Shown here: piece after piece, positions 19,706 to 46,335 of the stretch
How positions within the stretch are numbered: position 1 is the stretch's first letter
How the letters are laid out: each line of letters starts with the position of its first letter
DNA from: the human T2T-CHM13v2.0 reference genome, Homo sapiens
Length of the DNA stretch: 64,000 bases
Strand: one strand, 5' to 3'
NCBI RefSeq assembly: GCF_009914755.1
Contig: NC_060936.1
The notes under the pieces: model-generated
Databases searched by the model: none
Told to the model about the DNA's origin: nothing
The model's input: only the letters and a program-made list of their open reading frames with translations
Made by a program: the position numbers and the translations under genes

Positions 19706-20729
19706 CATACACACATACTTATCCCAGTGTCCAGAGCAAATGTTCTGCCACTTACTGCTATGGGTGTGATTTCAGACAGCTATTTAAACCTGAGTTTCAG
19801 TTTTTCTCATCTTCAAAATGGAAATATTGATGCCTAATTCAAAGGGTGAAAATTAGTGAACTATAGAAACCCCTTGGTGTATGTCTGGTCCAACAAATGG
19901 TAGCTCTTATTAGCTAACATTTTGTAATATCTGCCCACTCTCTCCTCCAAGGGATGGAGAAGTAATGCTGAGTTCCAGACTAGGAAAGGTAGTGGTAGCA
20001 GAAAGTGATTTACAACTCTGACTTTTTTCACATTTTCTTTCCAGAGCACATAGTAAGTTCTTGTTGGTTCATTCATTCATTGAACAGTGTTTACAAGTTT
20101 GAACAAGCTTGAACAACTTGCCATCATTTTGTTCACTTGTATTCATCTTACTCTCACCACTAGAACTGCAAGGTCCATGAGGGCAGAGGCAGTGTCTGTT
20201 GCTGGGTGAGTGACTGGATTGAGCTCAAAGCATGTCTGAAGACTGAAATGGGCCAGGCAAGGAGATGGAAACTGGAGGCCTGGATTCTGGCTCGGTCATA
20301 CCTCCAAGAACGTAACTTTCCCTCGACCCTGGAGTCTTCACAGACCTTCCTTCTGCTGTGAGGCACTGGAGAATCACTTGAGACCAGACTCAGGAAACTC
20401 TTCCCTGATGGGAAGACATTCATTCATCCACTCCACATCTCTGAAGCCCCAAGAGAAGGATCTGAATCCCCTAGTCTGAAGAGTCAGCAAGTGTCCAACA
20501 TAGCAATCTTGATAAAAAGGGAGAATTGATAAAGGAGGGAGCAGCCCCACCTCAGTAACAAGAGGGAGGAAAATTCCAGCTAGTACATGTACTTAACATG
20601 AAAGCAGACATGTGCCAAGACCCTGCTTTCATGGATATTAGGTGTTCCCAAATATAAGAAACACCCATTCTTGCCCACAGGCCTCACTGGATACTATCCA
20701 AGATGTCTAGAGAATAAGAGGAAAGAGAG

Positions 20730-21200
20730 AATCATAATATCCAAAAGGTGGAAACAACCCAAATGTTCACCAATAGGTGAACGGATAAACAAAGTGTGAT
20801 ATATCCATACAATGGAATATTAGTCAGCCCTGAAAAGGAATGAAGTACTGATAAATGCTACAACATGGATGAACTTTGAAAACACTATGCTCAATGAAAG
20901 AAGCTAGTCACAGAAGGTCTCTTATTATATGATGCCATTCATATGAAAGTCCAGAATAGGGAAATCTACAGAGACTGAAAGTACATTAGTGTTGTTAAGG
21001 GCAAGAAGGAATATGGGGGGATAGGGAGGTGATAGCTAAAGGTTACAAGATTTCTTTTTGAGGTGATGAAAATGTTCTAAAATTAACTATGGTGATGGTT
21101 CGACATACTTGTGAATATACTAAAACCATTGAATTGTACATTTCAAATGGTGAATTGTATGACACATGAATTATACCTCAAGAAAGTTGCTTTTTAAAAA
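20730..21200 (+). mobile_element. Old L1 (L1MB-like) 3' end
   Basis: 'tggaaacaacccaaatg', 'atccatacaatggaatatt', 'gatgaaaatgttctaaaatt', 'tgaattatacctcaa'. Confidence 0.85.
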
Positions 21201-22435
21201 GACAGCGTAAGGGGTGGGGGGCAGTTGAGATGAAGCAGGAAAACTGTGATCAGAAGCAAAGCTCAGGGGCTGTCTGGCCTGGCTGCCCCAAGTCAAAGCC
21301 TGCATTTCATACAGGCAATGTTAGGGTAGCCCCCAAGCCATGATTCGGAAAGATAAATTGACCCCAGATGGAATAGGGCTGGGTCCCTTCTCCCTTGACA
21401 GCTCCCTTTCTGTGTTTTTTCTGGCACAAGAAACTCTGTCATCTTGTATAAATAGGAGAAATTTATGGCAGTTTTCCCTCTTCTTCTCCCTGGTGGGCTA
21501 CTAGGAAAGGTCTAGGGGGAGGAGGGAGCCTGAAATTCCAAAAATATAAATGTGGAAAGACTGGAGGGGGTCGAGGAGTCTCTTTGCCTGCCTTAGCTCT
21601 GGCCCCAGCTCTCCTTTCCCTTTGCATGTTTGACCATCTGGGTGATGAGGAGGGTAGAGAACTGGTGCAGCCCGTCCTCTCTGCAAGCCCAAAAGAGATG
21701 GGTCCCAAAGCAGATATCCGACAGGAGGGGCACAAGGGAAATCAAGGAAATAGGCTTGGCTGTCCCATGAAATAATTGGAGGAGACACAGACCACTGCCC
21801 TCCTTCCTGGATTTGGCTATTTTTGTACTTCCCTGTTTGTTGAGGCAGCCTGATACAGCGGGAAGAGAACTCGTCCTCGATTTAGAAAGATTGACAGAGA
21901 AACTAAGTGTGTGACCTTAAGCAAGTCATATCTTGTCTCCGGGCCTCACCTGTAAAAAGAGGGAGGGGACTGAATTTATCAGGGGTTTTCAAATGATTTT
22001 AACTCTGGGGTCCTTCCTTCAAATAAAACCGTATGCAGTGACCCAACATGAACATGAGTAGTAGGCTGCTGAGCTTCTTGAAGGTAGGAATGGGAGTCTC
22101 AGGGCCCTGTGGTGACTGGCGAGAGGCTTGTCCAAGCACAAGATGATCTCCATGGCTTTTCCAGCCCCGTCCTCAGGAGGGATTTGCCCCCATGGTGAAG
22201 AGGCTCAGTTCTGCACACCCAGTGGGCTTGAAATCCAGCTCCACCCCCTCCTGTGTGTCCCTCAGCACATAACTTACCTTCCTTGAACCTGTTTCCTCGT
22301 GTGTAAATTGGAATAATAGTAACACATATCTCAGAGGATTGTCACATAGATTACACTAAATAATGTGCATAGAGTCCTTCGCATACTTATCTGGCCCAAT
22401 AAATATTATTATAGTTATTCCGTGATCTGATGTAA

Positions 22436-22733
<298 letters not shown>

Positions 22734-22769
22734 CGATACAATCTTTTTAATTTGAAATATCTGGTGTGA

Positions 22770-23200
22770 GAAGGTGAATTAGAAAGGATGACAGCAAAAC
22801 TGCTATAACACAAAGGCCCCAAAACACAGTAGCATATAGAAAACAGAAGTTTATTTCTCACTTAGTCTGGGAGGAAGCGGTTCCAGACAGCAGGCAGCTC
22901 TGTTCCTCCTAGTCAGTCAGGGACGTGTGTTCCTTTCATACCTTTGCTTTGTCTTCCCTTAGGGATGTCTTTTCAGTTGCCTGGTCAAACCTGTCTCAGG
23001 CACATCTGCCCAGCTCATGAAAGAGAGAACACAAAGGAGAATTTACCCAATGTCATCAGGCTTTGAGGACATGCTTGCCTCACATTCCCCTGTGTCTACA
23101 CCTGGCAACAAGAGCAGCTGGGAAATGGAGTGTCCAGCTGGGTGTCTCTCTACCCTCGTGCAGCAAGGAAAGAAGAGATTTTAGTGGACAACGGGCAGTC
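22770..23200. mobile_element. MaLR LTR (MLT1-like) fossil
   Basis: 'ccccaaaacacagtagc...acagaagtttatttctcac' is typical of MLT1 LTRs. Confidence 0.5.
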
Positions 23201-24629
23201 TTAATCCAGGGCTCAAACCCACACCCGAGCTGTCCTCTTCCTCTTCTCTTCCCAAAGGAAGGGAAATAAAGTCTACAGCCCAGAAAACAATGTGACCACC
23301 CATCCCCTACCCCAATCAGGTCCCTGCCATTCATCCCAAGATCAGCAGTCTTGGGAAAGTGGCTTGGAAGCCTCCCTCCAGAAAGACCACCCTTTTGTCC
23401 ATCTTCTTCACATGGGTGGATGTGAGAAAAGTTTCTCTCCCCACTGCCTGCCTGCCACTCCCTGTCTCAGTTTCAGCTCACGCTCTAGCCCTTTGTTCCC
23501 AGTCACCAAGAGTGACTACAAATGCGGGGGAACAGGAGGACCTGAAACTTCATGGAAATTGAGACTGGGACACAGAAGCCATGCTCAGAGGCAGCCTAGG
23601 TGAGGGTTCTGATGCCAGGAAATCCAGCTACTACTGTGTAGCCTAAAGCGGGGATTAAGCTCTCAGAACTTCAATGAACTCTTTTGGAAATAGGGGTAAG
23701 AAGCCCACTTGTCAGGGCTGTTGTGAACATCAAATGTGATCATGTATGTACCTAGTACATAGTATGCCTTCAATAAATGGTAAGGCAAACCCAAGGCAAA
23801 TCGAATTCATGTCCATTACTCTGACCCAGCCTTTGCATAAATTCTTTTTTCTTCTCCTTCCTTGTCAATGCATGGCTCCCTCCCTCTTCTTTACTTCCTA
23901 TCCTCATTCCCCTACCATCTGAACCCTGATGTGGAATCTCTTTTCTCATGAAATCTTCCATGATTGAAAAATTCCTGCTTGGCCACTTCCCACTCCAATA
24001 CTCTATCTTCGCCCATCTTCCATCTACCCCATGGTCCTGGCCCAAGTTCACATGTGTCCCATCCCTCCCTTCAAAAAGCATGCAGCAATGGAAGGGCTTT
24101 AAGTTTGTCATCAAGCAGATCAGAGTTCAGATGCCAACTCTGCCAAGTTCTAGCTTTAGAACTTTGTCAGATCACTTCCTCTCCTTGAATCTCTGTCTTC
24201 CCAACCCTCTGGTGAGGTCAAGTGTGTGTGGGCTGGTACATAAAGGATATTTAATCTCCTCTGCTCTACTCAACCTCCCCCAACTCACACTCCCAGGACT
24301 AACTCTCTACCAAAGGGAGTTATTAGACCAAGAAAGTAATTCTCCCATTACCAGCCCCACCCCAACCCTGCCCAGAGAAAAAGAAGTGACTTCGAGTCTA
24401 TGGGTCTTGGAGGGACCACCAACCCAAGAGCTAGAGCAGAAGAAGGACTTGGATATCCTAGCTTCCAGGGTTATAGGATCTCTCCCCAAGCCCTCATATG
24501 GAGCCCCAGTTGCAGGACTAGCTTCAGGGATAGGAGTGAAAGAGTTGATCTGATTCCAATCTTAGCCTGTAAGTAGTAGCTCACCTGTGCCTCTATTTTC
24601 AGCCTTCCTAGATCAGAAGAGCAACAATA

Positions 24630-25110
24630 TCAATGACAACTAATGCTTACATAGTGTTTCCTATGGGATGGGCATTGTTCCAGGCTCTTCGTACATATAA
24701 CTCATTTAATCCTGACAGCAACCTTTGAGCTAGGTACTATTAACCCCATTTTACAGACAAGGAAACTAAAGCACAAGGGGTTAAGTAACTTGCCTAGGTC
24801 ATACAACTCACATAAGGCATGACTGAGATTCAAAACCAGGCCGTCTAGCTCCAGAATCCATCCTGTTAACCACTCTGCCATAAAAAGAGCTAACATTTAC
24901 TGGCAGTTTCTATGTGCCAAACACTGTGGAAAACACATGGCATGTATTTCTTCTAATTCCAAATAACCCCCTGAGATAAGTTCTATTATTAGTATCCCTG
25001 TTTTACAGGTCAAGAAACTAAGGCAGAGAGAAAAGTTAAGCAACTTGCCCTGAGTCACACAGCTAGATATTAATAGTTTCAGAACCCCTAGCTGTTTTGC
25101 CTCAAATCCC
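24630..25110 (-). mobile_element. Two tandem MIR SINEs
   Basis: 'ccccattttacagacaaggaaactaaagcac...aagtaacttgcctaggtca' and a second copy at about 24990-25070. Confidence 0.85.
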
Positions 25111-27479
25111 ACCTCCCCACCCCTGCTCGAAGCCCCTCCTCTTCTAGGTGGGTTGTTTAGTTCCTATCACCAGTTCTTCACAAATCTGCTTTACCCCCGA
25201 CAGCCTACAACCCTTGTTCTCCAAAACTCCTGTTGACCTCCGTCCCTTTCCCTTCCCACTTTCTCCCTAGTCCCTCCGCTCCCCACAAAGTCCCCCAAAC
25301 CATTCTGTCCCTCTCCCTCTGCTCCCCACCCACCCTCCCCCACAACTCCTGCTGAAACAGATGAATTTCACCAAAAAAGACCATCAGACTTTCCCCAAGC
25401 AGGCCCCCACTGTGCCTGATCGCACACCCCCAGGGGAGGCACCACAGTGGCTAAGCTGGAGACCCAGAAATAAAATCCTCATTCTACTTCCCTGCCCCCT
25501 CTTCCCATCACTCATCTGGGAATCCAGGGCGAAGAAGGGAGCTAAAGTGCAGAGCATTCATTTAATATTAACAAATCGAAATGAATTCTTTTAATGCCAA
25601 TTAACTTCGAGCGGCCCCTTATTAATAGTAATTTAGATTCATACTTGGGAGAAACAGGGACGGGGGCTGGGCCAAATGTGCCCAGAATGTCAATGTGACT
25701 GGGGAACTGAAAGGGGAGGGGGGCAGTTTTACTTCTGCCCAGTTGGGTTCCGTTTCCCTGAGAGAAATGGATAGTCACTGGAGGCGGACCTTTGGGAAAC
25801 ACGAATTACTCTTGTAATTTTATTTTTGTTACTTCAAGGAATCTGAATAGTTTGAAGCCATGTCACACCATTTTAATAGTTTATTTTCACAGTAATGCTA
25901 AAAAGAAGAATTTCCTCAGAGCTGGGATTTACTTCAAACTCTCTCCTAAGCCAAACCTTACTGACAAAAGGGACAAGTCCCCAGGCCAGCTCTCTACCCT
26001 TCTTTGTTCAGAGCTAGAGCCAGAGATCAATATGGGCTTCCCCAATCCCTGCCCCTTCTACCTTAACCAAAACTAAAAGGAAGAATCAACACTGTGTGTC
26101 TCTCTGAGAAGTCTCCCCCAGGAGGTAAAAGACCCAAGGGGCTGACCCCTAAGCTGTTCAGCTTACATTTAAGGAAGAAAAACAATCTGCCTGCACTTTT
26201 CTTAGAATTTAGGGAAAAAATGAGAATTTAAAATTCAATTTCATGTATCAGAGTTCTCCAGAATACAGCCAAGTGTAAAGAACTTAGTCCCAAATGAAAA
26301 AGTTGAACAGAAATTCTGCTCTCACTCGTTTTGCCGGCTTGGAGGTCAGACTGGAGGTGTCCTGAACTAGAACCAGAGCATAGGTTCTGACCCAAGAAGG
26401 ACACTGTCTACTTCCCAGGCATCCCTCCTTGGCTGGGAGGAGAGGGGAGGATGAGTCCGTTGGAAGCTGAGAATTGTGGAAGCTGGAGATGGGAGTTCTG
26501 AGATGGAGGAGGCAGGCGCGTGAAGGAGGTCAGGGAAAGGCAAGTAAATCTACTAACCATTGAAGTTTATAAAATAAAAACCTTAAAAATGGTTTAACAT
26601 GCAAAAGGTTAAATTTTAAAAAGAGGCCAGGTTTTAAAGAAGGTAAAATACCTCAAATTTAAACAAATAAAAACGAGGAAAATACACAAAACATTTCAAG
26701 CAAATTGTTCTTCAGAAGAGGAGAGGTTGGAATTAATCAAAAGACCTTTTTTACACACACACACCCCCCAAGAGTTTCCCAAACAATAAATTCATTTACA
26801 AAACAAAAAGAGGAATCAACGCAAAACCTCATCCACACACAGAGGAAAATAAATTGTGGTGATTCTGTAACAGCTGAAAAACTAGTGAGGGAGGAGAAAA
26901 ATGAATAAACTCTAAATCTATTAGGTGATATTTATAAATAGCAAAATTGGAGGATGGAATGGAGAAAGGAGTTGAACTTATCATTAAAGAAGTAACACAT
27001 GTGAAAACATAAGGTGTAACTCATCCCCAAAGAAAAGTAAACTCTCCATAAAGTAGCAAGTATACAAATTTATTGAAAAGGAAGAAAGTACCACTCACCC
27101 CCCCCAATATAAGTGTATTAATTTGAATTAAAATTTTCTCCAAATCCAAGATAGGTTACACAAAAGAATACAAACATATTTTTTTTCTTTCAACTAAGAG
27201 GAAAAACAAAATCCGATTTAAATTCACGAATGGGACAGGAAGGGAGGCTGTGGTTTGCAGGTGCTAGTAAACGGGGTGAGGGTTGTGAAGAGTTTGAGGG
27301 GTAGAGGACCAGCTTACCTCGCTTTGGAGCCGCGGCGGCCAACAGGAGTGGGCCAAGGACCCTGCCAGTGCCTGAGTGATAGGGGAAATAAGGAATAGGG
27401 GATTCGGGTGCCCCTAGACGAATGAGGAGGATGGAAAGACTGGGGGTGCCCATCTCCCCTCCTCTGCCCGCCTCCCTCC

Positions 27480-27620
27480 CTCCGGTACCCAGGCCTAGAG
27501 AGCTACTGAAAGTTACAAATTGCTTCCATTATTAGCTCATCCCGGGCGGCCTGGTCATTGGCCAGCCCCTGGCCACGTGGTCCCTCGTACCAATCGATCG
27601 AATTCTAGTCGCAATTCTCT
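27480..27620. promoter_or_regulatory. CpG-island promoter, probably bidirectional: inverted CCAAT (27557), E-box CACGTG (27574), CCAAT (27590)
   Basis: Motifs read directly; flanked by divergent consensus splice donors (- strand 27317/27318, + strand 28170/28171). Confidence 0.7.
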
Positions 27621-27725
27621 GTCTGTCCCTCGGCTCTGGGGAGAAAGGGGGGGCTGTGGCGTGGGGGCTGAGGAGGGGCTAAGGCGGGAGGGGCGCCTCA
27701 TCCCTTCACCCTCCCTTTTCGCCAT

Positions 27726-28170
27726 GTGGGGGCCCTGAGCGCCGCCCCAGAAGAGGTCGAGGGAATGTTGTGGGCTGGGGCACACCAGCACGGCAGAAAC
27801 TGGAGAAAGCGAGAGACGTCGCCAGGGACCCAGGGACCTCTCCCTCCAGTTCCCCGGGCCCGCCCGGCCCTGATGGCCACTCACGCTATAGCGCCCACTC
27901 TGTCCTGGGCCATCCCGCGCCAGCAGTGTAGCCCCCAGCCCGGGCGCCTGAATGCTCTCCCTCCGGATCGCTGCTCGGGTCCCCACTTTGGCGACCGTGC
28001 CCCCGAGTCCTGCTTCCCCGGGGCCTGCTCTGTATCAGGCGCCTGCGCCTTCAAGGGTACCCGGCCCGCCTGCCCTCCCCAAGAGCCGAGTTTGCGCTCC
28101 TCCCGGAATCGTTTGAGAGAAGGACAAACTTTTGGCAGGATGGAAATCTAGATGAGCCTGTCCGGAGCAG
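27726..28170 (+). pseudogene. Exon 1 relic of a paralog-group-1 Hox gene (putative HOXC1), hexapeptide region
   Basis: CAA ACT TTT GGC AGG ATG GAA ATC TAG ATG AGC CTG TCC GGA GCA G|gt = QTFGRMEI*MSLSGA-G versus Hox1 QTFDWMKVKRNPPKT-G, same spacing and phase-1 intron; 5' boundary uncertain. Confidence 0.8.
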
Positions 28171-30333
28171 GTAAGCTGGGCCCGGGACGGGTGCGATTCA
28201 GCCCGAGAACAATCTGTCTCTCCCCGTCCCGGTCTCTCCCTCCCCTTACCCCTGTTTCCCCTGCAGGCTGACATATTAATCTGCCTTCCCCCGGGAGAAA
28301 TTTGGGCTGGGGTTGGGCTTCTGTCAGATGCATGGGGTCAGAGCAGCTTTCCTCCCCGAGTTTAGGGACTAAGGTGGTAGCTGGCAGGGGAGGGGGAGGG
28401 TTGCTTCCGAAACTGAGGATTGAGGGGAGGGTTAGGGGCCGAGAAACCCAGAGTCTGAGGGAGACGACTTCTTTCCTCAAACGCAACTTGGGGGAACTTC
28501 GGAAAAGTTTTTTGAGGGGAGATGGAGAAGGGAGCGGAGTTGGGGTTTCGAGGGCTAAAGTGGGAGAGAGGGTGCTCCGCTTCCCGTACTGAAGGAAGGA
28601 TGTGTGTGCTTATTCCCCAGTCGGGACCGATTACCAGCCTAGAAAAACCCAGCCGCGTCCCAAACCCGCTCACCCCAGCAGGCCCTTAGAGACGCTTGGA
28701 GATCCCCAGACACGCCCCGCGGAAAGGGAAGGAAATGCCAGCCCGAGTTGCCGACTCTGCCGGGACGGGGCGGGGGATCCGCCCAGAGCGGTCCCCTGCT
28801 GTCCTGGGCCCTTACGTTGATTCTAAGTTAGGAGTGATCTGAGAGAGGGAATAACTCCCAAAAATCTTTTTTTTTTTTTTTCTGAATCCAATTTGAGTCA
28901 GAGACCCATTTCCTTGAGATGGAGCCAAGCGAGTGCCCCCTCCCGCCTCCAGCACAATCTCCCGCTCTTCTCCAGTTCCCAAAGGAGGGCAAGGAAAAGG
29001 CCCCTACTCTCCTCCCAGGGCTGAGATTTCCTCCCCCACCCAAGAGATGCCCCAGGAGGAAGGAATGGAGAGGTTCTTCAAAGGGCAGTCAAGAGCAGAG
29101 GGTGGGTTCAGAGGTCACAGCTGAACTTGGGGCCCAGGACAAGGGGGAAGGGCGGGCCCAGGCCGGTGTAGAAGCTGCGGGGTGGCCTGGGGAAGTGGAC
29201 AAGGGCAGAGGCCGCTGCAGGTGTTGGGGGGTACCCTGGAGCCCGGGGTGTTCCTGGGCGGGGAGGTCCAGCCAAGCGGCAAGGGTCTGCGCTGTGCCTT
29301 TAGTTTTTAGGTTGGGCCCCTCCTGGGGAGCACCCAGCTGGAGGAGCCAGGCAAGTGGCAGAGGACACCTTCCGACTCCTTGGAAAGGGCCAGGAAGCGA
29401 TCTGGATCCTAGGAGAGAAAATTCCTACGTGGAACATGTGGTGTTCTGGCCCTTCCTGGGTAGACACCTGCAGAGGCCACTTGGCCCTGCCGGGTCAGAA
29501 GCCACAAATCTGCCCAGGCCTTTGTTTTCACTATTCCTGAAGTTTTTCTGCTGTGGCCCAGCACCTGCCCTGGCACCTGCTCGGCATCTGCTCATTGGCA
29601 AGCCCCGGACGGAGTTGGACTGGCCTAGCTGAGAGGTTTAGGAGGGCTTCCGCTGGCACTGCCAACAGGGAGTTTGGCTTGGTCCCCCAAAAAAAGGGCC
29701 TTTGAGAAGGACATGTCCAGGGGCAGACACGAAATCCACTGATACGCAAAACGAATGTAAACCCTTTTCTTTCCTCACATCTTGTGGCCCTTCACACCTC
29801 TGCAGTTCAGAGGATTTGGAATGGAAGGCCTCATCCATCCCCAGTCCCAAAGCAAACGTGGGAGCCAGCTTGGGCGTCTTCTTGCAGGCTGCTGGGGCTT
29901 TGTGTGCTCTGAGAGAAGATGTCTGGTCCTCTGCCTACCCCACTCCCCCTTTGATGAATGTGGTCCTTTTTGCTCCTGCCTCTCCAATACTACCCCTCGC
30001 CCCACCCCCCCACCCCCAACCCAGTCCCACAGATCTATGGGACTATCTCTCTTTTTCTCTTTCCTTGCTCCTCTTCCCCTTTCTTCTTAGGATTGATGGA
30101 CTGACAGCAGTTTGGCAAGGCTTCCCTAAGCCTGTAATAGGGAGCTGTGGACCCAGCCCTGACTTCTCAAGTAGGGGGAAACAGCTCTATTCCCGGGCCC
30201 TTGAGATTGAGTCTCAAGTTGACAGGAGTTGAGAAAGAAATGCATGAAGGATGGCTGGGCTTACGCAGGACAAAAACCTCTACTGGGGAGGGGCCAGTTT
30301 TGTGCCTTGTGCCTACTGCTGAGAGGGAATTTA

Positions 30334-30960
30334 GAAACAAAGGAAGATAAGAAGAAGGCCTAGGGAAACAGCATAAAGGACTGGAAAAATTCAGAACAGC
30401 AAAGAGAAAAAACTGGGAGAGAGGAAAAGATGTGAAAAGGCCCTAATGCTGGAGACAGAAAGGTATTCTGGAAGGGTGGCTGGGATAGAGATAACATGAA
30501 AGGAATATTGATAAAGAGCAGAAGGAAGAAGCAGGACTAGGTTTGTTTGGGTTTTTAAGATTAGAGATAGTCTGGGGCCTGTTAAAATAGAAAATAGAAG
30601 AAAAAAGATTAGAGATAAAGACAGAAAGGAAAAGAAAAGAAAAATAGGGAGAGAAACAGAAAGCAAATGAAAGGAGAGAGCTAGAGAGTAAAAGAAAAAG
30701 GAAGGGAAAGAAAGGGAGGTAAAAGTGAGAAAAAATAAATGGAAGGGAGACAGAAAGATAGGTAGAAAAGGAGGAAAGACAGGGACAAGGGAAAGAAGCA
30801 AGGACAGGGGAAGGAATGGAAGAAAAAGAGAAAGTGAAGGTAGGGCAGAAATGAAGCAAAAGAAGGAAGGAAAAATGAGAAATGAAGATACAGTGAGATA
30901 AAGAAGGAATAAGGGGAGTGAGGGGAAGGCGGGTAGAGAGAGAGAGAAAGAGAAACACGA
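30334..30960. repeat. GA-rich low-complexity polypurine tract
   Basis: About 0.6 kb of mostly A/G on the + strand (core about 30586-30958). Confidence 0.9.
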
Positions 30961-31121
30961 ACTCAACTAAGGTTAACGGTTAACAGAAAGGGGATCCCGG
31001 TTCCTGAGGAGCACAGGGAGGAAAGAGGAGATGGAGGGTGAGCAGAAAGGCCAGTTGGGGCCCCTCCCCGCCTCACCTTGGGCTGCGGAGGCCCTGACCG
31101 CCACCACTCCGCCGTCTCTAG

Positions 31122-31510
31122 GGCCCAGACCTGGGTGATGGCTGCCTGTGAACCGTGGGAGGTAGAGGCAGGGGCTGGCTGCCTGCATACGGGCTTCTCT
31201 TCTCGAAGCAGCTGAGCGAGCTGGAGTTCTTCCTGCAGCCCTACCTGCCCCCGACACAGCACGCCAAGCTGGACACATGGCGTTGAGGCTGTATGACATG
31301 CAGGTCCAGATCTGGTTCCAAAAGGCGTGCATGAAGTACAAGAGGCCAGTGAGGCAGGAATTGTTTGTGGATTCCCACCCTGGCGGCCCCTCTCCCGGGC
31401 TCAATCCTCTCACCCGCAGCCCCAAGTGCCTCCATTCCCACCCTACTGGCAGAGGCTGTCTGAAGACTGGGCAGCTTTGTTCCGGGCTCGGGGGTGCTCT
31501 GGTTCTGTGA
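31122..31510 (+). pseudogene. Exon 2 relic: frameshifted homeobox of a paralog-group-1 Hox gene (putative HOXC1)
   Basis: Branch-like CTGAC 31094 and acceptor AG 31120-31121; frames LHTGFS (31183-31200), SKQLSELEFFLQPYLPPTQHAKLD (31203-31274), [23 protein letters not shown] (31277-31345) align to [55 protein letters not shown]. Confidence 0.88.
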
Positions 31511-31529
31511 GCTTGGGCCTGTTTGATCA

Positions 31530-31872
<343 letters not shown>

Positions 31873-32887
31873 TGATCATTTGTTAAATGAGCCCTTTGCA
31901 CTGGAGGGTTTTTCTGTAGTTTTGGTTAGCCTGCCTGAGTATGTGCAAATGAGACAGGGATGAAGATAAGACCTAGTCCACTTTGCAAGGGTGGGAGGGG
32001 AGTGTGAGGGTGTAGGGGTTGGGAGGATGGGAGGCTGGGAGTGAGATCTTCATTTTCTTCCATTGGTGAGAAGAAAAATCTTCCTCCTTTGCTATCCTTA
32101 TCTCCAACCCTGCCCCAGAAAACCACCTTTCAGGTCAAGGAGTTTCTCCATGCCAGGAGGGGTTGGATTCATCTGCAAAGAGCTTGGGAGGAGGTTTGCA
32201 AATCCTGGAAAAGCCAGAGAAAGGATCTCATACATGAAAGGGAAGGAAGACATTCCCTACCCGGGCAAGTGGACCTTAGGTCTGCAGTAGAGTTCACTGA
32301 ATTCACACACACAAAGAGATTAATTGGTAAGGTGACTTTAGATTTAGCTATAGAGAGGATCAACTTGAGGTTGCTAGGTATCTTTAGCCTGTTGGGCCTG
32401 CACTCCCCATGCCCTGCTCATGTGCTCTGGTTGATTCACAAGGTTTCTTAGAGCCAATTCCTTTGTCTCCCAAAAGTGGGATGGGGCAGGTCACTGAGGT
32501 CAGCCAGTTCCTCCAAGGGCAGTGTATGCCTTGAGGATGGGCTGGGGCACCCCCAAACCACTGGCTAGAAAGGCATGTTCACAGTAAACCTTGCAGTGCT
32601 GTCTCAGGGAGGCCTCTGACCAGCACTGCCTAGCATTGCTCTTTAAGCTTTTCCTCCCCTCTTTTCTCTAGCTTCTCCCTTCCTTTATTTCTCTTTCTCT
32701 CTCTCTTCCTTCCAACCTTTCTGATTTCTCTGTCTCCCTTTTCATCCAGTCCAAGTTGGGGATCTTGTACTATCTTTGTACTCCAGATGGCTCTGCTCTG
32801 AGCCCTTTAGGCTGGTTAACATGTACCCTGCCCTCAAGAGTTCACTATTTGGATGCAAATAGCAGGATTAGAAGATGGGGAGGGAGC

Positions 32888-33250
<363 letters not shown>

Positions 33251-34378
33251 TTAATCATGATTATGACCTTCACATCCCCTTGGCTCACCCCTAGACAATT
33301 CTTCCCCACTCCCAGCCATCTGCAAACCACAGTCAGCCTGTCCCTGCTCCCAAAAATGGAATTGCTGATGCCCTCAAGGCTGTTACTCTCCCAGGGTGAG
33401 TGAGAGTGAGGTCAATGGCGCCAGGTCGGAGCCTCAAACTCTTAAATAAACAAAGCATATTTCCCTATTCCTGATGCAGTTGGGGGTCATCTATCCCTTG
33501 GAATGGAGAGGCTGGCAATTCTGGCTCTTGGCTATCTTTCCACAGAACACCCCTGATTAGCCAGGCCCACCGCCATCCACATCTGCTCGGCAAAGAAGGA
33601 AGGCAGCTTGTTCCAGACCTTGGTGAGCAGCTGCAGACTGCCTGCCTAGAACAGCCTCCTTACTCCAGCCTGGCAGGGAAGGAAGGAACCTGACTTGCTT
33701 CGCAGGATCTGGAAGCTCAGCCGGCAGAGCTGAGAGCCGCAGTTGCATCCTGGAGCCTGATGCTAGAAGCAGCTTCCGTCTTTGGGTTCTTGCTGCCTCG
33801 GCCTCTGCTCTGTTCAGTTTGCTGTTGTGTTTTTCTCCCCCATGTTGGGGTGGTGGGGTACAGGGAAATAAAATGCTTTCTCCCAGGCCCCTAATCCTTC
33901 CCCATGCCTCCATCAGCCTCAAAGCTGCTGACAGTCATGAACTGCACCTTCCAGCCCTGCCCATAAGCTACTCAAAGCAAATTCAAATTCTCTTCTGGCC
34001 AGGAGGAAGGGCAGATGCTCCCTCCTTCCTCAAGCCTCCCTGGCTCATTGATCCATTTTGAGGGCATTTGGGGGTCAAAGTTGAGACCAGATTGCTTCAG
34101 TTTGTATAAAATTAGCATTTCTTATCACACCAAGGCCACACCTGTTCTCTGGCCTCACAAACCAGTGAGGATGTAAAGGTTTGTTGAGGTGGAGGAACAG
34201 AAGTGAAATGAGCAATCTGCTCCATTTAGAAGTCAGTCGCTTCGGCTGTTCATTCCACTAATATTTATCTAGTACCTATTCTGTGCCAAGCATTGTCTCT
34301 ACCTCAGTTTGCCACAAATATGAAAAAAAAAAAATTCTTGGAACTGTGAGGCTTCAATGTGTTGTGGACCAATATACA

Positions 34379-34384
34379 AATAAA
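34379..34384 (+). terminator. Polyadenylation signal AATAAA of the lncRNA terminal exon (alternative AATAAA at 33867)
   Basis: AATAAA followed about 16 nt later by GT-rich sequence. Confidence 0.6.
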
Positions 34385-37300
34385 CCAATGGAAAAGAAAG
34401 TGTGGTTCGGAGTCAGCTGATTTTCATTGCAGCTTTCCATGTGCTGGGTCTAAGAGCCCCTGACTTCCGAGCTCCAGCTACCCAGCCCCAGCTGGTTGAC
34501 AAGCAGGACTTCCCTGGGGCCCATTTGTTTTTCCCACTGGAAAAATGTTAGAATGGGAGCAAGAAGCCTGTGCTGGGATCAACCGCCATGAAAGTCCCAA
34601 AACAAAGGGTTTGGGATGGGCGGCGGTGGGGCCCTCCCAAACATTGCTCCGTCAGAGGTGAGGGAGGGTAGGGGTGATGTGATACGTTTCTCCAGGTTGC
34701 AGAGCAGGTCTGTGAGTTTGCCTTGGTGTAATCACGTGCCTGAAGGTGATAACAAGGGTGTGCATGTGTGAGTGAGCTGAAGGGGGGCAGAGAAGTGTGC
34801 CTGTGCCAGGCTTGTGTACACCGGGCCCAGATGCCTGCACAGGTGCCAGTGTGTGTGTGTGGAGGGGGATAGAGGTGCCTGCAAATCTGAACATGTCTCT
34901 CCATATGTGACCCTCAGTGTATGTGAGAGTGTGTGTACCCGCTGAATTATGATAAAATTACACCGACCCTTACAGAAAATCCATAACAGCCTCGGCCTTT
35001 CTCCCCCGACCTCTCGACCTCTGGGGTGCCTGAGGAAAGGGTTGACCTGGTCACTGCCTCCTCCTAGTCAATGAGTCCCCCTCCATTAGCATAAAACATG
35101 AATCTGCTGGCAGCTTGACAAATTATAACTAGCAGCCAGAGTTTTGCCAACTGGCTGGCTTGGGTGCTGTCTATTTATCATTGAAAATGGTAAATCATAA
35201 GAATCCAGATGACTTAATTATTCAAATCCACCCAGGACCCAGAGAAGCTGCAGGCCCGTCAATCTCAGCCCTGGGCTCACAGAGAAGAGTGGGGGAAATG
35301 CTGTGAGCTTGTGAGCTGGAAGAAGCAGGTTCCATTGCCGCCTCTCCCCTACCCAGAGAGCAGGATTTTTCTCTGCAGCCCCTTCCCCTCCCTGCCGTTC
35401 TGCCCACCTTTCCAGCCAGAAGCCCGGCCAATTGTTTTGGTTGCTGGCCTCCCAAGGCTCTCCCTCGCACGCCTCCCGCTGCCCACCACCCGCTCCTCAA
35501 GCTCAGCCAGTGTTTCCCGGCCTCTCTTTGTGTGGATGTTAGCTCTTTCTCTCTGTTTCAGTGCCCTCATTTTTATTTCTTCTCTTTCTCCTATTCCTTT
35601 CACCATTTCTCTTCGTCTCTCCTCTGCCCACAGATAGACACTGAGCCCCGCACAGGGCCTCTCTGGTGGAGTTTTGCCTGCTCTCCTGGCCCCTTTGTCC
35701 TCACTGTCCCAGAGGTGCCAGCTCAGGATCCCCACGCATACGCACCCCAACCTTAACCCAGCGCTCCGAGTGCTAGAAGGCCTGAATTCGCGTCTCTCTG
35801 CTGTGGGGCCATATGGAAACACACATGTCAGTGGATAATACTGGGCCTGCCCCCACACCCCATACACACAACCTTTCTGTCCCTTTCTTCCGTGGATTTC
35901 TAACTACCATTATGCACAACTTGGGAGGTAGTGGCCAGGCTGTCAGAGATGTGCCCGGACCACTGAGGCAGGGCTTCGTCTCAAGAAGGCCCATCCCTCA
36001 CTCCCAGCATGGAACTACCTCAAGCCCCAGCAGAGGGATTGCTCAACATGAGCTTTCCCAGAAGGAGAAGAAACCCTGTTTACAGAACAAGTCCTAGATC
36101 CAGAGGTCTGCACACTGAGCTTCTGGGGGGCCCTTTGATGTTTGGGTCCTTTTATCTTTGTGTCCCTCACAGTCCAATATAAATATGTCCTACTTTTTCT
36201 TGCAGTCCTGGACCCCGTGAGAAATTTATGCCCTTCTAGACCCACAATGGCAGGTGGGAGGCACATATTCACCAATGCTGATATTGCTTTGACCCCAGAG
36301 GGGAATGTGAGGAGCAAGGAGGTTGCCAGAGCCCCTCTGCTTGAATGGCATCCCGGTCTATTCTTTTGGAGGGCTTGCTTTACCTGTAAGGGCCCTGGAG
36401 GCTCCTCAGAGCCACTTCTGTGTCTGCAGATGCTTGTCAACTTGGTTCTGGGATTCAGTTTGGCTTTGTCGGGGTGTGTGTGTGAGCACGTGCACACCTT
36501 TCGTGGATAACCTGGAGTCTTGACATACTGATGGGTCGTGCCTGGTGGCGTGCATGCCTGCACAAGTGCGCCAGTGCCCCTGATGTGTATGTGGGTGAGT
36601 GTGTATGTGTGCATGAACACACACTTCCAGAAAGAGCCCTTGTGCTGAAACAACGAGTGACAATGTCCCCACCAACAGGACACCTGAGGAAACAGCCCTC
36701 TCCATTCCATTTTAAGGCCTCTGAGCAATGTTGTTGTCAGTGAAATATTGGACTTGGCATATCATAAAACCTTAAAGAAGGAGCTACCTGTTTCTGCTAC
36801 TGAAAGTAAGTTCTTCCTAGAGTCTAGCCTTCTCTTCTTCTTTCAGGGCGGAATATGAGCATAGTCAGAAATCTCGAGAGGGGGCTCCCTACTCCTCCAA
36901 GAGAACATACGTGACATATAGGGAGCCCTTCCACAGCCAGGCTCATCCCCACAGCTTAAACACTTCATCCCCTCACTCTTCCCTTCTTCTCCACCTTTCC
37001 AAGCCAGGGTGATATTTGACAAGGGCAGTGGCGAGGGGTGAAACTTGGGGCGGGTGGCTGGGGGAAGGATAAAGATTCAAAAGCAGGCCAAGCTGCTGGA
37101 AGGCAGGAGATCAATAAGGGGAGACAGATTGGAGACAGGTTTCTCTCACTACTTCCCCACCCCTCGCTGGCTCAGCACCCCCGCCCCAGCTCCTGAAAGC
37201 AGGTGGAGGACAGAGCCAAGCACTGGCCTCTCCCTGCCCTTCTAACTCAAACAGGTTCCTAATCCCTGGGTAGAGGGTAAACAGCCTCTAAGCACGGCCA

Positions 37301-38584
37301 GGATTAACCACAGAAATGCCGCTAATGTATTTCGGGGCACTGCTCCCTGCCCCTACCCCCACCCTGTGTTACTAATTAGCCCAGCAGCAGGGAGAAGCTT
37401 GGGAGGAGCAGCTCAGAATGCCTTTGTGCAGGCTCTGAAAGCACAGGTCTGGGCTCTGGACAGTGTCTCTGGTGCTAGACAAGCTGGGGTGGCAGAGGAT
37501 TCCCGCCCCCTCCCCGCCACTCCTAAATCAGCTCAAAGGCAGACAGGTTTTTCTCTGTGCCCTTCCTGAATCCCCATCTCTCCTTTCCTGTTCACAGCTG
37601 GGAGGCAGGTGGGGGACAAGAGGGAGAGTGGAACCGGCTCTGGAAATCAAACGATGCAATAAAAAATTAATTGTCTAATTAAAACCATGAGGAAGCCCCT
37701 TGCCAGAGTTTGGCTCTGAGTCGTCAGGGCTATAAAGGGTGGGAAAATGAGTCTCAGCTCCTAATAAATTCCTGATTTGCAGCTTGGTCTATCAGCAAAG
37801 GAGCACTGAGCGTTCCACTGGCTAGGCCTCCTGGAGGTCATTCCACCCTCTCTCTGCCCCAACCCAGCCATCACACCCAAAATCCTACACAAGCCCACAG
37901 TCAGGGTTTCCCCAAAAGGAGAGAAAGCGGGGACCCTCAGTCTCCCTGATCTGATGCTTACCCATTTCTTCCTGGTCTTTCCTCGGGAAAGGAAAGTTCT
38001 GGAAACTTCCTCAACCAAAGAGTTCTTCATTTAGGTTAACTAATAACTGTATGAACAAGTTTGCTATGTAGGTTCATTTTGACCTCACCTCTTCCACTTT
38101 TGTGAAAAGTATAATTTATGAACTGATTTATGATTCCCTCTCTTAGATCTTAGTGCTGATTTTTGCAGGTGAATGACAGAGAACCAAGCTAAGAAATTAA
38201 TCTCCCCTCTAAAAGAGGGCTGTGCACCCTGCCCAGTTGACCAAATCCTCTGGAAGAATGAACACAGAGCTAGTCCAGAAAGGAGTGCAGAGTTAGGCAA
38301 CTCTCATGGGCAGATGGATGCCCAAACCTTCTCCCTGAATCACTGAACCATTTCTTCACTTGGGTCTGCCTGTGTAGACACAGGCTCCATGCCTCTATTC
38401 CCTCCCTTTCTTGGCAAAAACAAATGCATTATACATCATCAGAGGTATTAATTCATAATAACAGCGGGAGGAGGTAGTTAGCATACTGCCTTCAACATCA
38501 TATTACATTATTTTATTATACAGAATGCAATATGAACTCTATATCTGTGATTGGCTTCTTTAAACAAACATGGCAGAACAAACA

Positions 38585-38930
38585 AGGGTTGCCCTTCAAA
38601 ACAGTCACCTGCAGGGAACATACACTCATTCCTTATGTGCCTCTATTGATTACAACATACCTGCAGCTTCCTTTTAAAACTGACTTCAGAGCCAGTTACA
38701 AAGAATTCAAGGCAACCATTATTAACTGATTTTTTTGTGGGGCGGGGGGGCGCAGCGGCTGACTGATTCCAAAAAAGCAAAGCATAAAGATTTACCACCA
38801 ATAAGGACGATCAAAAAACTGAGTCACACACCCTGAAGACAATTCCAAAAGAAGGCTGCAAAAAATTGTGTCACTGCACCCTTGTTGAAATAAGGGGGTC
38901 TCCCCACAAGGTGGCTACTCGCAGGCAGCG
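38585..38930. mobile_element. MARNA-like Tc1/mariner fossil with degenerate inverted repeats
   Basis: 'cccttcaaaacagtcacctg...atacactcattcc' and 'ctgaagacaattccaaaagaag...aaggtggctact'; the two ends are imperfect reverse complements. Confidence 0.65.
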
Positions 38931-39269
38931 GTGCCCGTCAGAACCAGTTCTCCATAGCCACATCTGGAGCACATTACTCATCATTCCTGATGATCCTTCT
39001 TTCGTTCATCTGGTTGTTATTTTTCATCCTAAACAATGGACTAAGCTTTCCCTAAGAAGGAGAAAAAAGAAGAAAACAAATTCCTGACCTCTATCTAGGT
39101 CGGGTTCCCATTTCTGATTTCAGCGAGTTCCCATGCGCAAGTGTAGCCATCGTGGCTAGGCCATTCTGCCTCTAAGATCCGCAAACCTAGAGACTGGAGT
39201 GTAGACTCTGCTTCTGTTTCACCTCGTTGTTATCGTTGGTTGTTTGTTTGTTCGTTCGTTTGGGGGAGT

Positions 39270-39555
39270 TTTCTTTGAGGCAGGGTCTTGCTCTGCCACC
39301 CAGGCTGGAGTGCAGTAGCACGATCATGGCTCACTTCAGCCTTGACCTCCTGGGCTCAAGTAATCCTCCACCTCAGCCTCCCAAGTAGCTGGGACTACAG
39401 GCACACACCATCATGCCTGGCTAATTTATTTTTTATTTTTTGTAGAGATGGGGTCTCCCTATGTTGTCCAGGCTGGTCTCAAACTCCTGGCCTCAAGCAA
39501 TCCTCCCACCTCAGCCTCCCAAAGTATTGGGATTATAGGCATGAGCTACTGCCTC
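39270..39555 (-). mobile_element. Alu (AluJ-like)
   Basis: 'ttgacctcctgggctcaag', 'ctcaagcaatcctccc'. Confidence 0.92.

Positions 39556-45988: not shown

Positions 45989-46335
<347 letters not shown>

What the first reader, a model, noticed from the sequence alone, without database searches (positions are those of the whole stretch)
28125..28176. Decayed Hox1 hexapeptide (TFDWMKVKRNPP) at the end of the lncRNA first exon
Seen: CAA ACT TTT GGC AGG ATG GAA ATC TAG ATG AGC CTG TCC GGA GCA G|GTAAGC. Q, T, F and M are identical to Hox1. Nine further residues are each one nucleotide from a Hox1 codon: D GAC>GGC, W TGG>AGG, K AAA>GAA, V GTC>ATC, K AAG>TAG, R AGG>ATG, N AAC>AGC, P CCG>CTG, P CCC>TCC. 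There is no indel, and the intron falls at the same codon and phase as in HOXA1 (..PPKT-G). Established: FDWMKVKRN is diagnostic of labial/PG1, versus YPWM or FPWM in other groups, and the Trp is needed for PBX binding. This assigns the paralog group independently of the homeobox.
Basis: partly seen in the sequence, partly recalled or inferred. Interest (0 to 1): 0.85.

Follow-up and report, generated by a model that had tools for sequence, protein, structure and literature searches.

The report
Fossil of lost HOXC1 in LINC02381
The last 46 bases of the first exon of the human non-coding RNA gene LINC02381 are most likely the decayed PBX-binding motif and splice site of HOXC1, a Hox gene that humans are said to have lost, with a decayed homeobox 3 kb further on.

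Summary
Window 28125-28172 reads QTFGRMEI*MSLSGA + G|GTAAGC and ends at the annotated end of LINC02381 exon 1. It matches the HOXA1 hexapeptide-to-donor 48-mer at 32 of 48 bases without a gap. That is the best of 127,906 positions in the window (next best 27).

Among the 23 human HOX genes with a hexapeptide, the three group-1 genes rank first to third (32, 27, 24; best other 21). Only they have the donor GT at that codon and phase.

About 3 kb downstream, on the same strand and inside the lncRNA intron, lies a frameshifted homeobox relic (E = 8.7e-11). It is the only one in the 106 kb between HOXC4 and the window end. Taken alone it favours group 1 only weakly.

The best reading is an unprocessed HOXC1 pseudogene whose exon-1 sequence and splice donor are now used by LINC02381 (also called HMS or CyCoNP).

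No HoxC1 or HoxC3 sequence and no other vertebrate genome could be reached, so orthology and age are untested. General-purpose nhmmer gives the hexapeptide site alone only E of about 2-3. My searches found no paper describing a mammalian HOXC1 relic.

The parts
27400..28400 (.). GC-rich island (62-68% GC). It holds the start of LINC02381 (27629, + strand) and the first exon of FAM242C (27885-27953, - strand). I infer that it is the old HOXC1 5' region, now a two-way promoter.
   Evidence: Composition profile; RefSeq table supplied with the finding. The promoter role and the inheritance from HOXC1 are inferred, not tested.
27629..28170 (+). LINC02381 exon 1. Its 3' part overlaps the relic of HOXC1 coding exon 1 in the sense orientation.
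   Evidence: RefSeq annotation (NR_026656.1); alignment to the HOXA1, HOXB1 and HOXD1 exon-1 ends.
27672..28148 (+). Stop-free run of 159 codons in the reading frame of the hexapeptide relic, ending at the in-frame TAG (28149-28151). Possibly the still-open remainder of the exon-1 reading frame.
   Evidence: 151 stop-free codons upstream of 28125. 97 of 5000 first-order Markov simulations gave a run this long in a fixed frame. No protein similarity to HOXA1, HOXB1 or HOXD1 exon 1 in this stretch.
28125..28170 (+). Decayed group-1 hexapeptide region, QTFGRMEI*MSLSGA(G), corresponding to QTFDWMKVKRNPPKT(G). The PBX-contact Trp is now Arg (TGG>AGG) and a Lys codon is now TAG.
28171..28176 (+). 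Splice donor GTAAGC (CAG|GTAAGC), at the same codon and phase as the donors of HOXA1 (CAG|GTCAGT), HOXB1 (CAG|GTAGGG) and HOXD1 (AAG|GTAAGT). It is still used, by LINC02381.
   Evidence: RefSeq exon end at 28170.
31163..31394 (+). Homeobox relic with flanks, inside the LINC02381 intron. Homeodomain positions 1-60 fall at about 31174-31351. There is a 2-nt insertion near 31204-31205 and a 6-nt deletion of codons 18-19. There are further indels between positions 28 and 36, and a TGA at 31284-31286 in the upstream frame. The distance from F8 to W48 is 118 nt instead of 120.
   Evidence: tblastn E = 6.6e-5 (HOXD1), 0.004 (HOXB1), 0.02 (HOXA1). nhmmer E = 1.3e-6, 1.2e-5 and 2.9e-4. Profile of 39 human HOX homeoboxes: E = 8.7e-11, 37.7 bits. 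Codon map.
33546..34399 (+). LINC02381 exon 2, downstream of the homeobox relic. No Hox similarity was found in it, so its acceptor is not the old HOXC1 acceptor.
   Evidence: RefSeq annotation. tblastn and nhmmer found no hit there with E below 0.5.

Best explanation
The finding is the 3' end of coding exon 1 of an unprocessed (unitary) HOXC1 pseudogene.

Shown:
- A decayed group-1 hexapeptide region ends at a splice donor in the group-1 position and phase.
- A decayed, frameshifted Hox homeobox lies 3 kb downstream on the same strand.
- Both lie 3' of HOXC4 in the HOXC orientation.
- The donor and the exon-1 sequence are today the first exon and donor of the annotated lncRNA LINC02381.

Inferred:
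- The gene was HOXC1 rather than HOXC3.
- It lost its coding function in the mammalian stem lineage, after the split from reptiles, some of which keep HoxC1.
- Its GC-rich 5' region survived as a two-way promoter for LINC02381 and FAM242C.
- The donor survived because the transcript is still spliced there, now to a new acceptor beyond the dead homeobox.

The hexapeptide codons have no protein function now. The Trp is lost and there is an in-frame stop. They are simply lncRNA sequence.
For: 1. The site is the top match in the window to the HOXA1 hexapeptide-donor 48-mer: 32 of 48, rank 1 of 127,906, next best 27. That equals the identity between HOXA1 and HOXD1 over the same 48 bases, also 32 of 48.

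2. Group-1 specificity. HOXA1, HOXB1 and HOXD1 rank 1-3 of 23 HOX genes. After the WM codons they match 17, 15 and 14 of 30 bases, against 10 or fewer for all others. Only group 1 has GGT at the donor position.

4. The homeobox relic has E = 8.7e-11 and is the only one in chr12:54021598-54128000. It is collinear with the hexapeptide hit in the HOXA1 nhmmer search: HOXA1 688-743 aligns to 28121-28176 and 1254-1427 aligns to 31193-31364.

5. Protein-level paralogue tests favour group 1.
- Profile scores: PG1 32.0 bits, PG8 28.0, PG3 24.7, PG2 24.3.
- BLOSUM sums: HOXD1 126 and HOXA1 110 are the top two of 39.
- Amino-acid ML: PG1 best, ahead of PG2 by 5.5 lnL and PG3 by 8.8.
- All-position nucleotide ML: PG1 best, PG3 rejected at AU p = 0.006.

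6. Position. 70 kb 3' of HOXC4, + strand like the whole HOXC cluster, 21 kb before SMUG1.

7. The hexapeptide frame is stop-free for 151 codons upstream (97 of 5000 simulations).

8. Literature, passages read.
- HoxC1 was present in the tetrapod ancestor and is kept in caecilians, newts and some lizards (PMC3038165, PMC12506533, PMC9498476, 10.1101/2024.09.03.611012).
- The lizard gene has an intron of almost 9 kb (PMC9498476).
- HoxC1a pseudogene 'imprints' exist in teleosts (PMC2246111).
Against: - nhmmer gives the hexapeptide site alone E = 1.9-2.9, so it is convincing only together with its context.
- DNA-level nhmmer scores of the homeobox relic are highest for HOXB3 (33.5 bits), HOXB2 (32.1) and HOXA3 (27.4), ahead of HOXB1 (26.3), HOXD1 (23.8) and HOXA1 (19.7).
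- Raw identity does not separate the groups. PG1 gives 86-98 of 162, PG3 gives 91-97 and PG2 gives 85-95.
- With first and second codon positions only, PG2 is marginally better than PG1. On amino acids, PG2 and PG3 are not rejected (AU p = 0.30 and 0.24) (run with the -fast option).
- Some relic residues look like group 3: Tyr56, and Pro24 one step from Arg (and my reading of the codons).
- No N-terminal MNSFLEY relic was found. The best candidate is 19 of 30 at 27531, and Smith-Waterman scores are at chance, with fractions of 0.84, 0.28 and 0.23 of shuffles reaching the observed score.
- No HoxC1 or HoxC3 protein could be retrieved, and no other vertebrate genome is available here. Orthology, age and constraint are therefore untested.
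Confidence: 0.8

Rival explanations
1. The homeobox relic is what is left of HOXC3, which mammals also lost. On this view the group-1-like hexapeptide 3 kb upstream is a chance resemblance at a lncRNA splice donor.
For: - The DNA-level nhmmer ranking puts HOXB3 and HOXA3 above the group-1 genes.
- Tyr56 (MKYK) matches group 3, and Pro24 is one step from the Arg of group 3.
- PG3 is not rejected on amino acids or on first and second codon positions.
- Only one homeobox relic exists in the 106 kb, so either C1 or C3 has vanished completely.
Against: - The group-3 hexapeptide regions match the site at only 16-21 of 48 bases. After WM they match 4-10 of 30, which is chance level (7.5), and they have no GT at the relic's donor position.
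- All-position nucleotide ML rejects PG3: 39.4 lnL worse, AU p = 0.006.
- The protein profile favours PG1 over PG3 by 7.3 bits.
- The C-terminal flank (RQELFV) is nearer to the group-1 KEGLLP motif than to the group-3 flank (motif from PMC7706710).
- A chance origin of the hexapeptide site has a Bonferroni-corrected probability of about 6e-4 before its coincidence with the only internal + strand donor annotated in the window is counted.
Confidence: 0.1
2. Both resemblances are chance or compositional effects in a GC-rich lncRNA locus, and there is no Hox gene remnant here.
For: - The hexapeptide site alone is not significant by nhmmer.
- Alu sequence gives weak spurious homeobox-like hits elsewhere in the window, at 6948-7057 and 46200-46270.
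Against: - The homeobox relic has E = 8.7e-11 against a 39-gene profile and 1e-6 to 3e-4 against single genes, spanning nearly the full 180 nt.
- It is not repeat-masked and is single-copy in the genome.
- It lies next to the HOXC cluster on the right strand.
Confidence: 0.02
3. It is a processed pseudogene or a recent duplicate of HOXA1, HOXB1 or HOXD1, inserted by chance next to the HOXC cluster.
For: The hexapeptide segment is closest to HOXA1 at the DNA level: 32 of 48, against 27 for HOXB1 and 24 for HOXD1.
Against: - The hexapeptide and the homeobox are separated by 3 kb, with the donor kept at the exon end. The gene structure therefore has its intron, unlike a retrocopy.
- Divergence from all three paralogues in the homeobox is deep: 86-98 of 162, against 120-133 of 162 among the paralogues themselves.
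- No near-identical copy of 31100-31500 exists elsewhere in the genome.
Confidence: 0.02

Closest known systems
HoxC1a pseudogene 'imprints' in medaka and pufferfishes (PMC2246111, passages read; the Fugu pseudogene is cited there from Aparicio et al. 1997)
   Same: A lost group-1 gene at the 3' end of a HoxC cluster, still recognisable as degenerate N- and C-terminal portions and a degenerate, frameshifted homeodomain.
   Different: Those are teleost HoxCa clusters, and they were found by aligning intact HoxC1a proteins of related fish. The human relic is older and more decayed. It was found without a HoxC1 reference, and part of it is now a lncRNA exon.
Conserved mammalian lncRNAs that are fossils of ancestral protein-coding genes (Hezroni et al. 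2017, PMC5577775; abstract seen, term search of the main text). XIST/Lnx3 is the classic case, recalled from memory.
   Same: A lncRNA exon overlaps the remnant of a coding exon of a gene lost in mammals. It does so in the sense orientation and re-uses an ancestral splice site.
   Different: The main text of that paper has no occurrence of Hox, HOXC, homeobox, LINC02381, LOC400043 or SMUG1. Its supplementary tables could not be read.
Functional group-1 Hox genes HOXA1, HOXB1 and HOXD1
   Same: Two-exon layout. The hexapeptide is followed nine codons and one base later by a phase-1 intron. The homeobox lies in the next exon. The position is at the 3' end of a Hox cluster, in cluster orientation.
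   Different: There are stop codons and frameshifts, and the Trp of the hexapeptide is lost. 9 of the 13 motif residues are changed. The intron equivalent is about 3.0 kb, against roughly 350-470 nt in HOXD1 and HOXA1 (my arithmetic). No N-terminal motif was found.
psiHoxD12 remnant in the caecilian HoxD cluster (PMC4470032, passages read)
   Same: A remnant of a lost Hox gene detected in its expected cluster position.
   Different: A different gene, cluster and lineage. It was detected by global alignment with other gnathostomes.

Membership tests
Hox paralogue group 1 (labial/Hox1), as a relic | Hexapeptide region TF[DE]WMKVKRN rather than [YF]PWM plus other residues | tested here: met
   Only HOXA1, HOXB1 and HOXD1 of the 39 human HOX genes carry F[DE]WMKVKRN. 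The relic matches their DNA at 32, 27 and 24 of 48, against 21 or fewer for 20 other HOX genes. 4 of 13 residues are identical, and all 13 codons are within 1 nt of a codon for the motif residue. Met as a decayed DNA relic, not as a working peptide.
Hox paralogue group 1 (labial/Hox1), as a relic | Phase-1 intron nine codons plus one base after the Met of the hexapeptide | tested here: met
   GGT sits at alignment positions 46-48 in HOXA1, HOXB1, HOXD1 and the relic only, among 23 genes. The donor is the annotated end of LINC02381 exon 1.
Hox paralogue group 1 (labial/Hox1), as a relic | Homeodomain with group-1 residues (for example F8 and K/R11-Q-L-T14) and the C-terminal KEGLLP-type flank | tested here: inconclusive
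   F8, K11, Q12 and L13 are present, and S14 replaces T. PG1 is best by protein profile (32.0 against 24.7 bits for PG3), by amino-acid ML and by all-position nucleotide ML. PG2 and PG3 are not rejected on amino acids, and nhmmer DNA scores favour HOXB3 and HOXB2.
Hox paralogue group 1 (labial/Hox1), as a relic | N-terminal MNSFLEY-type motif about 200 codons upstream of the hexapeptide | tested here: not met
   The best candidate, at 27531, matches 19 of 30 bases of the HOXD1 N-terminus and lies 600 nt upstream in frame. Local alignments are at chance level.
Hox paralogue group 1 (labial/Hox1), as a relic | Position at the 3' end of a Hox cluster, transcribed in cluster orientation | tested here: met
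   The HOXC genes are on the + strand and HOXC4 ends at chr12:54021597. The relic is at 54092125-54095394 on the + strand, and SMUG1 starts at 54119277.
Orthologue of vertebrate HoxC1 | Best similarity to, and synteny with, HoxC1 of species that keep it | not testable with these tools
   Three protein searches returned only Hox-A1, Hox-D1 and Hox-B1 relatives. None was named Hox-C1, and the 8 unnamed or odd hits that I inspected look like A1 or B1.
Unitary (unprocessed) pseudogene | Disabling mutations with the ancestral exon-intron layout kept, at the ancestral locus, and no intact copy in the species | tested here: met
   In-frame TAG in the hexapeptide. Frameshifts and a TGA in the homeobox. 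An intron-like 3 kb gap with the donor kept. The homeobox relic region (31100-31500) is single-copy in the genome; the hexapeptide site itself lies outside the duplicated stretch. Papers state that human lacks HoxC1 (PMC4470032, PMC3038165, passages).
lncRNA derived from a dead protein-coding gene | A lncRNA exon overlaps the coding-exon relic in sense and shares a splice site with it | tested here: met
   LINC02381 exon 1 (27629-28170, + strand) ends exactly at the relic's donor (annotation).
lncRNA derived from a dead protein-coding gene | The same locus encodes the intact protein in other vertebrates (synteny) | not testable with these tools
   This needs lizard, amphibian or coelacanth HoxC loci.
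Processed pseudogene | No intron, poly(A) tail, insertion away from the parent locus | tested here: not met
   The hexapeptide and homeobox relics are 3 kb apart with a donor between them. The location is the expected cluster position.
Hox paralogue group 3 (a HOXC3 relic) | Hexapeptide region FPWMKESRQ with the donor further downstream | tested here: not met
   HOXA3, HOXB3 and HOXD3 match the site at 16, 21 and 17 of 48 bases. After WM they match 4, 10 and 6 of 30. None has a GT at the relic's donor position.

The most novel reading that the evidence does not exclude
LINC02381 (HMS, CyCoNP) is the transcribed fossil of HOXC1. On this reading its promoter, first exon and splice donor descend directly from the Hox gene. 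They have been kept in use since the coding function died in the mammalian stem lineage. The RNA's enrichment in spinal cord and neural progenitors would then be the surviving HOXC1 regulatory programme. Humans would carry a 40th Hox locus that switched from protein to RNA rather than disappearing.
Probability: 0.45. Interest if true: 0.75.

Novelty: new member of a known kind. Interest (0 to 1): 0.65.

Why it matters
Papers on Hox evolution state that mammals lack HoxC1 (PMC3038165, PMC4470032, PMC7875771, passages read). Two catalogues of human homeobox genes and pseudogenes have no occurrence of HOXC1 or HOXC3 in their main text (PMC2211742, PMC4584094).

A recognisable relic would do four things.
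- It fixes where HOXC1 was in the human genome.
- It lets the loss be dated along the mammalian lineage by comparing species.
- It gives an evolutionary origin to a lncRNA that already has functional literature in cancer and in motor-neuron differentiation (PMC8363838, PMC11381359).
- It adds a Hox case to the class of lncRNAs born from dead coding genes.

It also suggests a concrete hypothesis: the expression pattern of LINC02381 is inherited from the HOXC 3' regulatory landscape.

Tried and rejected
1. Retrieving HoxC1 or HoxC3 proteins. Three searches were made, and no listed hit was named Hox-C1 or Hox-C3.
- HOXA1 exon 1, residues 170-216: 122 of 135 candidates passed and the best 120 listed all look like Hox-A1.
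- HOXD1 exon 1, residues 170-217: 54 of 54 candidates, all placental Hox-D1.
- A 166-aa HOXD1 fragment, residues 41-127: 4500 of 4503 candidates passed, and the best 120 were listed.
- I inspected 8 unnamed or odd hits.
- The Atlas search was uninformative.

2. N-terminal motif. The best site, 27531, matches 19 of 30 bases, and local alignments are at chance. Rejected.

3. Protein-level detection of the hexapeptide relic. tblastn and a HoxA1 HMM built from 107 of the 120 proteins held then (lengths 290-350 aa) found only the helix-3 part of the homeobox.

4. A HOXC3 relic. None was found in chr12:54021598-54128000. The HOXA3-like hit at 6948-7057 is Alu sequence.

5. Retinoic-acid response elements. 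There were 0 matches to the strict DR5 and DR2 patterns, with 0.30 and 0.36 expected.

6. Rfam. No family matched in 20000-40000.

7. Control genomes of the genome search. They gave no homeodomain match, so they were no route to other vertebrates.

8. A 13.7-kb self-search of the genome was swamped by Alu hits.

9. Locating the old acceptor of exon 2. Several AGs lie between 31121 and 31171, and none could be singled out.

10. Literature.
- 0 papers hold both LINC02381 and HOXC1.
- 0 papers hold HOXC1P, 'HoxC1 pseudogene', 'HoxC1 remnant' or similar phrases.
- 31 papers hold HoxC1 as a whole word, and no listed title concerns a mammalian relic.
- Subscription journals are not covered.
- Supplements are closed. 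The fossil-lncRNA tables of PMC5577775 and Table S3 of PMC11381359 (TransMap homologues in 11 mammals) could bear on novelty and conservation.

Statements from memory, not from a call: no jawed vertebrate is known to have HoxC2; the XIST/Lnx3 example; and the true exon ends of the group-3 genes. That PBX binding needs the hexapeptide is supported by passages of PMC7706710. That the Trp is the contact residue is recalled.
Full report
**What is there.**
Window 28125-28176 reads CAA ACT TTT GGC AGG ATG GAA ATC TAG ATG AGC CTG TCC GGA GCA G|GTAAGC, which translates as QTFGRMEI*MSLSGAG. The GT follows base 28170, the annotated end of LINC02381 exon 1.

The window is chr12:54064001-54128000. HOXC4 ends at 54021597 on the + strand. 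LINC02381 spans 54091629-54098399 on the + strand. SMUG1 begins at 54119277. The site therefore lies 70 kb 3' of HOXC4 in HOXC orientation, where genes 3' of HOXC4 would be expected.

**Comparison with the human group-1 genes.**
I fetched HOXA1, HOXB1 and HOXD1 from the same reference genome. Their exon 1 ends TFDWMKVKRNPPKT-G|GT in HOXA1 and HOXB1, and TFEWMKVKRNASKK-G|GT in HOXD1.

Without gaps, the relic shares 32, 27 and 24 of 48 bases with them. For scale, HOXA1 and HOXD1 also share 32 of 48, and HOXA1 and HOXB1 share 40 of 48. The donor contexts are CAG|GTCAGT, CAG|GTAGGG and AAG|GTAAGT, and CAG|GTAAGC in the relic.

**Is it more than chance?**
- I slid the HOXA1 48-mer over both strands of the window. 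This site ranks 1 of 127,906 positions. The next best has 27 matches, and the mean is 12.0 with SD 3.1.
- The binomial probability is 1.5e-9 per site. After correcting for all positions and three queries it is 5.6e-4. With a deliberately pessimistic match probability of 0.30 it rises to 0.067.
It has a chance of 1.2e-7 per site, or 0.015 per window. It is met exactly once, here. The total distance is 9 against 12 for the next best, and none of 20 block shuffles reached 9.
- Less favourably, nhmmer gives the site E = 2.9 (whole HOXA1 gene, third hit) and E = 1.9 (three-gene profile, fourth hit). A HoxA1 protein HMM does not see it.
- The site alone is therefore suggestive. Its context makes it convincing.

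**Context 1: the splice donor.**
28170 is the only internal + strand exon end annotated in the window. The relic's alignment puts the group-1 donor exactly there, in the same phase.

**Context 2: a homeobox relic.**
- tblastn with the exon-2 frames of the three genes finds [26 protein letters not shown] at 31280-31357 and onward. E = 6.6e-5 for HOXD1, 0.004 for HOXB1 and 0.02 for HOXA1. A weaker upstream piece, SKQLSEL--EFFLQPYL, lies at 31203 in another frame.
- nhmmer aligns nearly the whole homeobox, with E = 1.3e-6, 1.2e-5 and 2.9e-4.
- A DNA profile of all 39 human HOX homeoboxes gives E = 8.7e-11.
- It is the only such hit in the 106 kb from the end of HOXC4 to the end of the window.
- The relic is frameshifted. 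It has a 2-nt insertion, a 6-nt deletion and further indels, and F8 to W48 spans 118 nt instead of 120. It carries a TGA in the upstream frame.
- It lies inside the LINC02381 intron, not in exon 2.
- It is not repeat-masked and is single-copy in the genome.
- In the HOXA1 nhmmer search the hexapeptide and homeobox hits are collinear and on the same strand.

**Which paralogue group?**
The helix-3 part of the relic matches all Hox groups about equally.

For the whole homeodomain, evidence favouring group 1:
- BLOSUM sums rank HOXD1 (126) and HOXA1 (110) first. HOXB1 (100) falls behind HOXB8, HOXA3 and HOXB2.
- Human-only group profiles give PG1 32.0 bits, PG8 28.0, PG3 24.7 and PG2 24.3.
- In constrained ML on amino acids, PG1 is best, but PG2 (5.5 lnL worse) and PG3 (8.8 lnL worse) are not rejected.
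- In constrained ML on all nucleotide positions, PG1 is best and PG3 is rejected at AU p = 0.006.

Evidence that does not favour group 1:
- With first and second codon positions only, PG2 and PG1 are tied.
- DNA-level nhmmer favours HOXB3, HOXB2 and HOXA3 over the group-1 genes. Within each group the GC-rich B paralogue scores highest, which points to a composition effect. That reading is my inference.
- Raw identities do not separate the groups.

The homeobox alone therefore says 'anterior Hox, probably group 1'.

The hexapeptide region is what decides the group.
- Of the 23 human HOX genes with a hexapeptide, the three group-1 genes rank first to third.
- The post-WM segment matches only them: 14-17 of 30, against 10 or fewer for the others.
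- Only they have the donor at this position.

**Other observations on the old exon 1.**
- The hexapeptide frame is stop-free for 151 codons upstream. 97 of 5000 simulations gave a run this long.
- No protein similarity to group-1 exon 1 survives there.
- No N-terminal motif can be shown.
- The region 27400-28400 is 62-68% GC. It holds the starts of both LINC02381 and the antisense FAM242C.

**Interpretation.**
The simplest account is an unprocessed HOXC1 pseudogene.

The literature fits this account (passages read).
- HoxC1 belonged to the tetrapod complement. It survives in caecilians, newts and some lizards, and has been lost repeatedly (PMC3038165, PMC4470032, PMC12506533, PMC9498476, 10.1101/2024.09.03.611012, PMC7875771, PMC3707753).
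- The Darevskia lizard HoxC1 has an intron of almost 9 kb (PMC9498476), so a 3-kb intron equivalent is not odd.
- HoxC1a evolves fast, and leaves pseudogene imprints in teleosts (PMC2246111).

The identity level of the relic is 53-60% over 162 homeobox columns. By my rough estimate this is compatible with some hundreds of millions of years of near-neutral decay. I could not test this.

**How it works now.**
Nothing suggests a protein. The Trp is lost and there is an in-frame stop. Published coding-potential tools call the RNA non-coding (PMC8363838, passage).

What is still in use is the donor, and presumably the promoter. LINC02381 splices from the old HOXC1 donor, over the dead homeobox, to a new exon at 33546-34399.

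The RNA has been studied as HMS (PMC8363838) and as CyCoNP. The CyCoNP work reports enrichment in spinal cord and neural progenitors, and putative homologues in 11 mammals (PMC11381359, abstract and section 21). Neither paper, in the passages and sections I read, links it to HOXC1.

**Novelty.**
- 0 papers hold LINC02381 together with HOXC1.
- 0 papers hold phrases for a HOXC1 pseudogene or remnant.
- The 31 papers that hold 'HoxC1' as a whole word show no mammalian relic by title.
- Two human homeobox catalogues and the fossil-lncRNA paper do not mention it in their main text.
- Supplements and subscription journals were out of reach.

The kind of thing is known: Hox pseudogene remnants, and lncRNAs derived from dead genes. 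This looks like a new member of that kind.

**Limits.**
- No HoxC1 or HoxC3 sequence and no non-human vertebrate genome could be used. Orthology, dating and constraint are open.
- A HOXC3 origin of the homeobox keeps about a one-in-ten chance.

Noticed in passing
window 25896-27673 (left limit not determined): A segmental duplication. This stretch is about 97% identical to four copies on chr9 and, over 27400-27673, 95-97% identical to two copies on chr20. The boundary at 27673 is sharp and lies inside LINC02381 exon 1. The duplicated stretch covers the FAM242C second exon (27318-27371), which fits the 'FAM242' gene family name. The hexapeptide relic lies outside it.
   Followed up: partly
window about 30560-30960, + strand: A purine-rich (GA-rich) tract of about 400 bp, with GC skew up to 0.71 and AT skew up to 0.73. 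It lies in the intron between the hexapeptide and homeobox relics and accounts for part of the enlarged spacing. It is not reported as a tandem repeat.
   Followed up: partly
chr12:54021598-54128000 (L040, L049, L041, L050, L042, L051 plus the window): No second homeobox relic was found, so nothing is detectable of HOXC3, the other HOXC gene that mammals lost.
   Followed up: yes
window 6948-7057 and 46200-46270: Alu 3' halves give weak nhmmer hits to the HOXA3 homeobox (E = 0.23-0.71). This is a trap for anyone scanning for homeobox relics.
   Followed up: yes
window 27531-27560, + strand: This is the best + strand match in the window to the HOXD1 N-terminal 30-mer (19 of 30). It lies exactly 600 nt upstream of the hexapeptide TTT and in the same frame. 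It is not significant on its own and lies within the duplicated segment.
   Followed up: yes
window 31530-31591, followed by 31525-31876: A T-rich microsatellite (TTTGTTG-like, about 8 copies), then a repeat-masked element (Alu-like by its translation), directly 3' of the homeobox relic.
   Followed up: no
window 31360-31395: After the homeodomain relic the reading frame gives [10 protein letters not shown]. Pro/Ser/Gly-rich stretches follow the homeodomain in both group-1 and group-3 human genes, so this could not be used to choose between them.
   Followed up: partly
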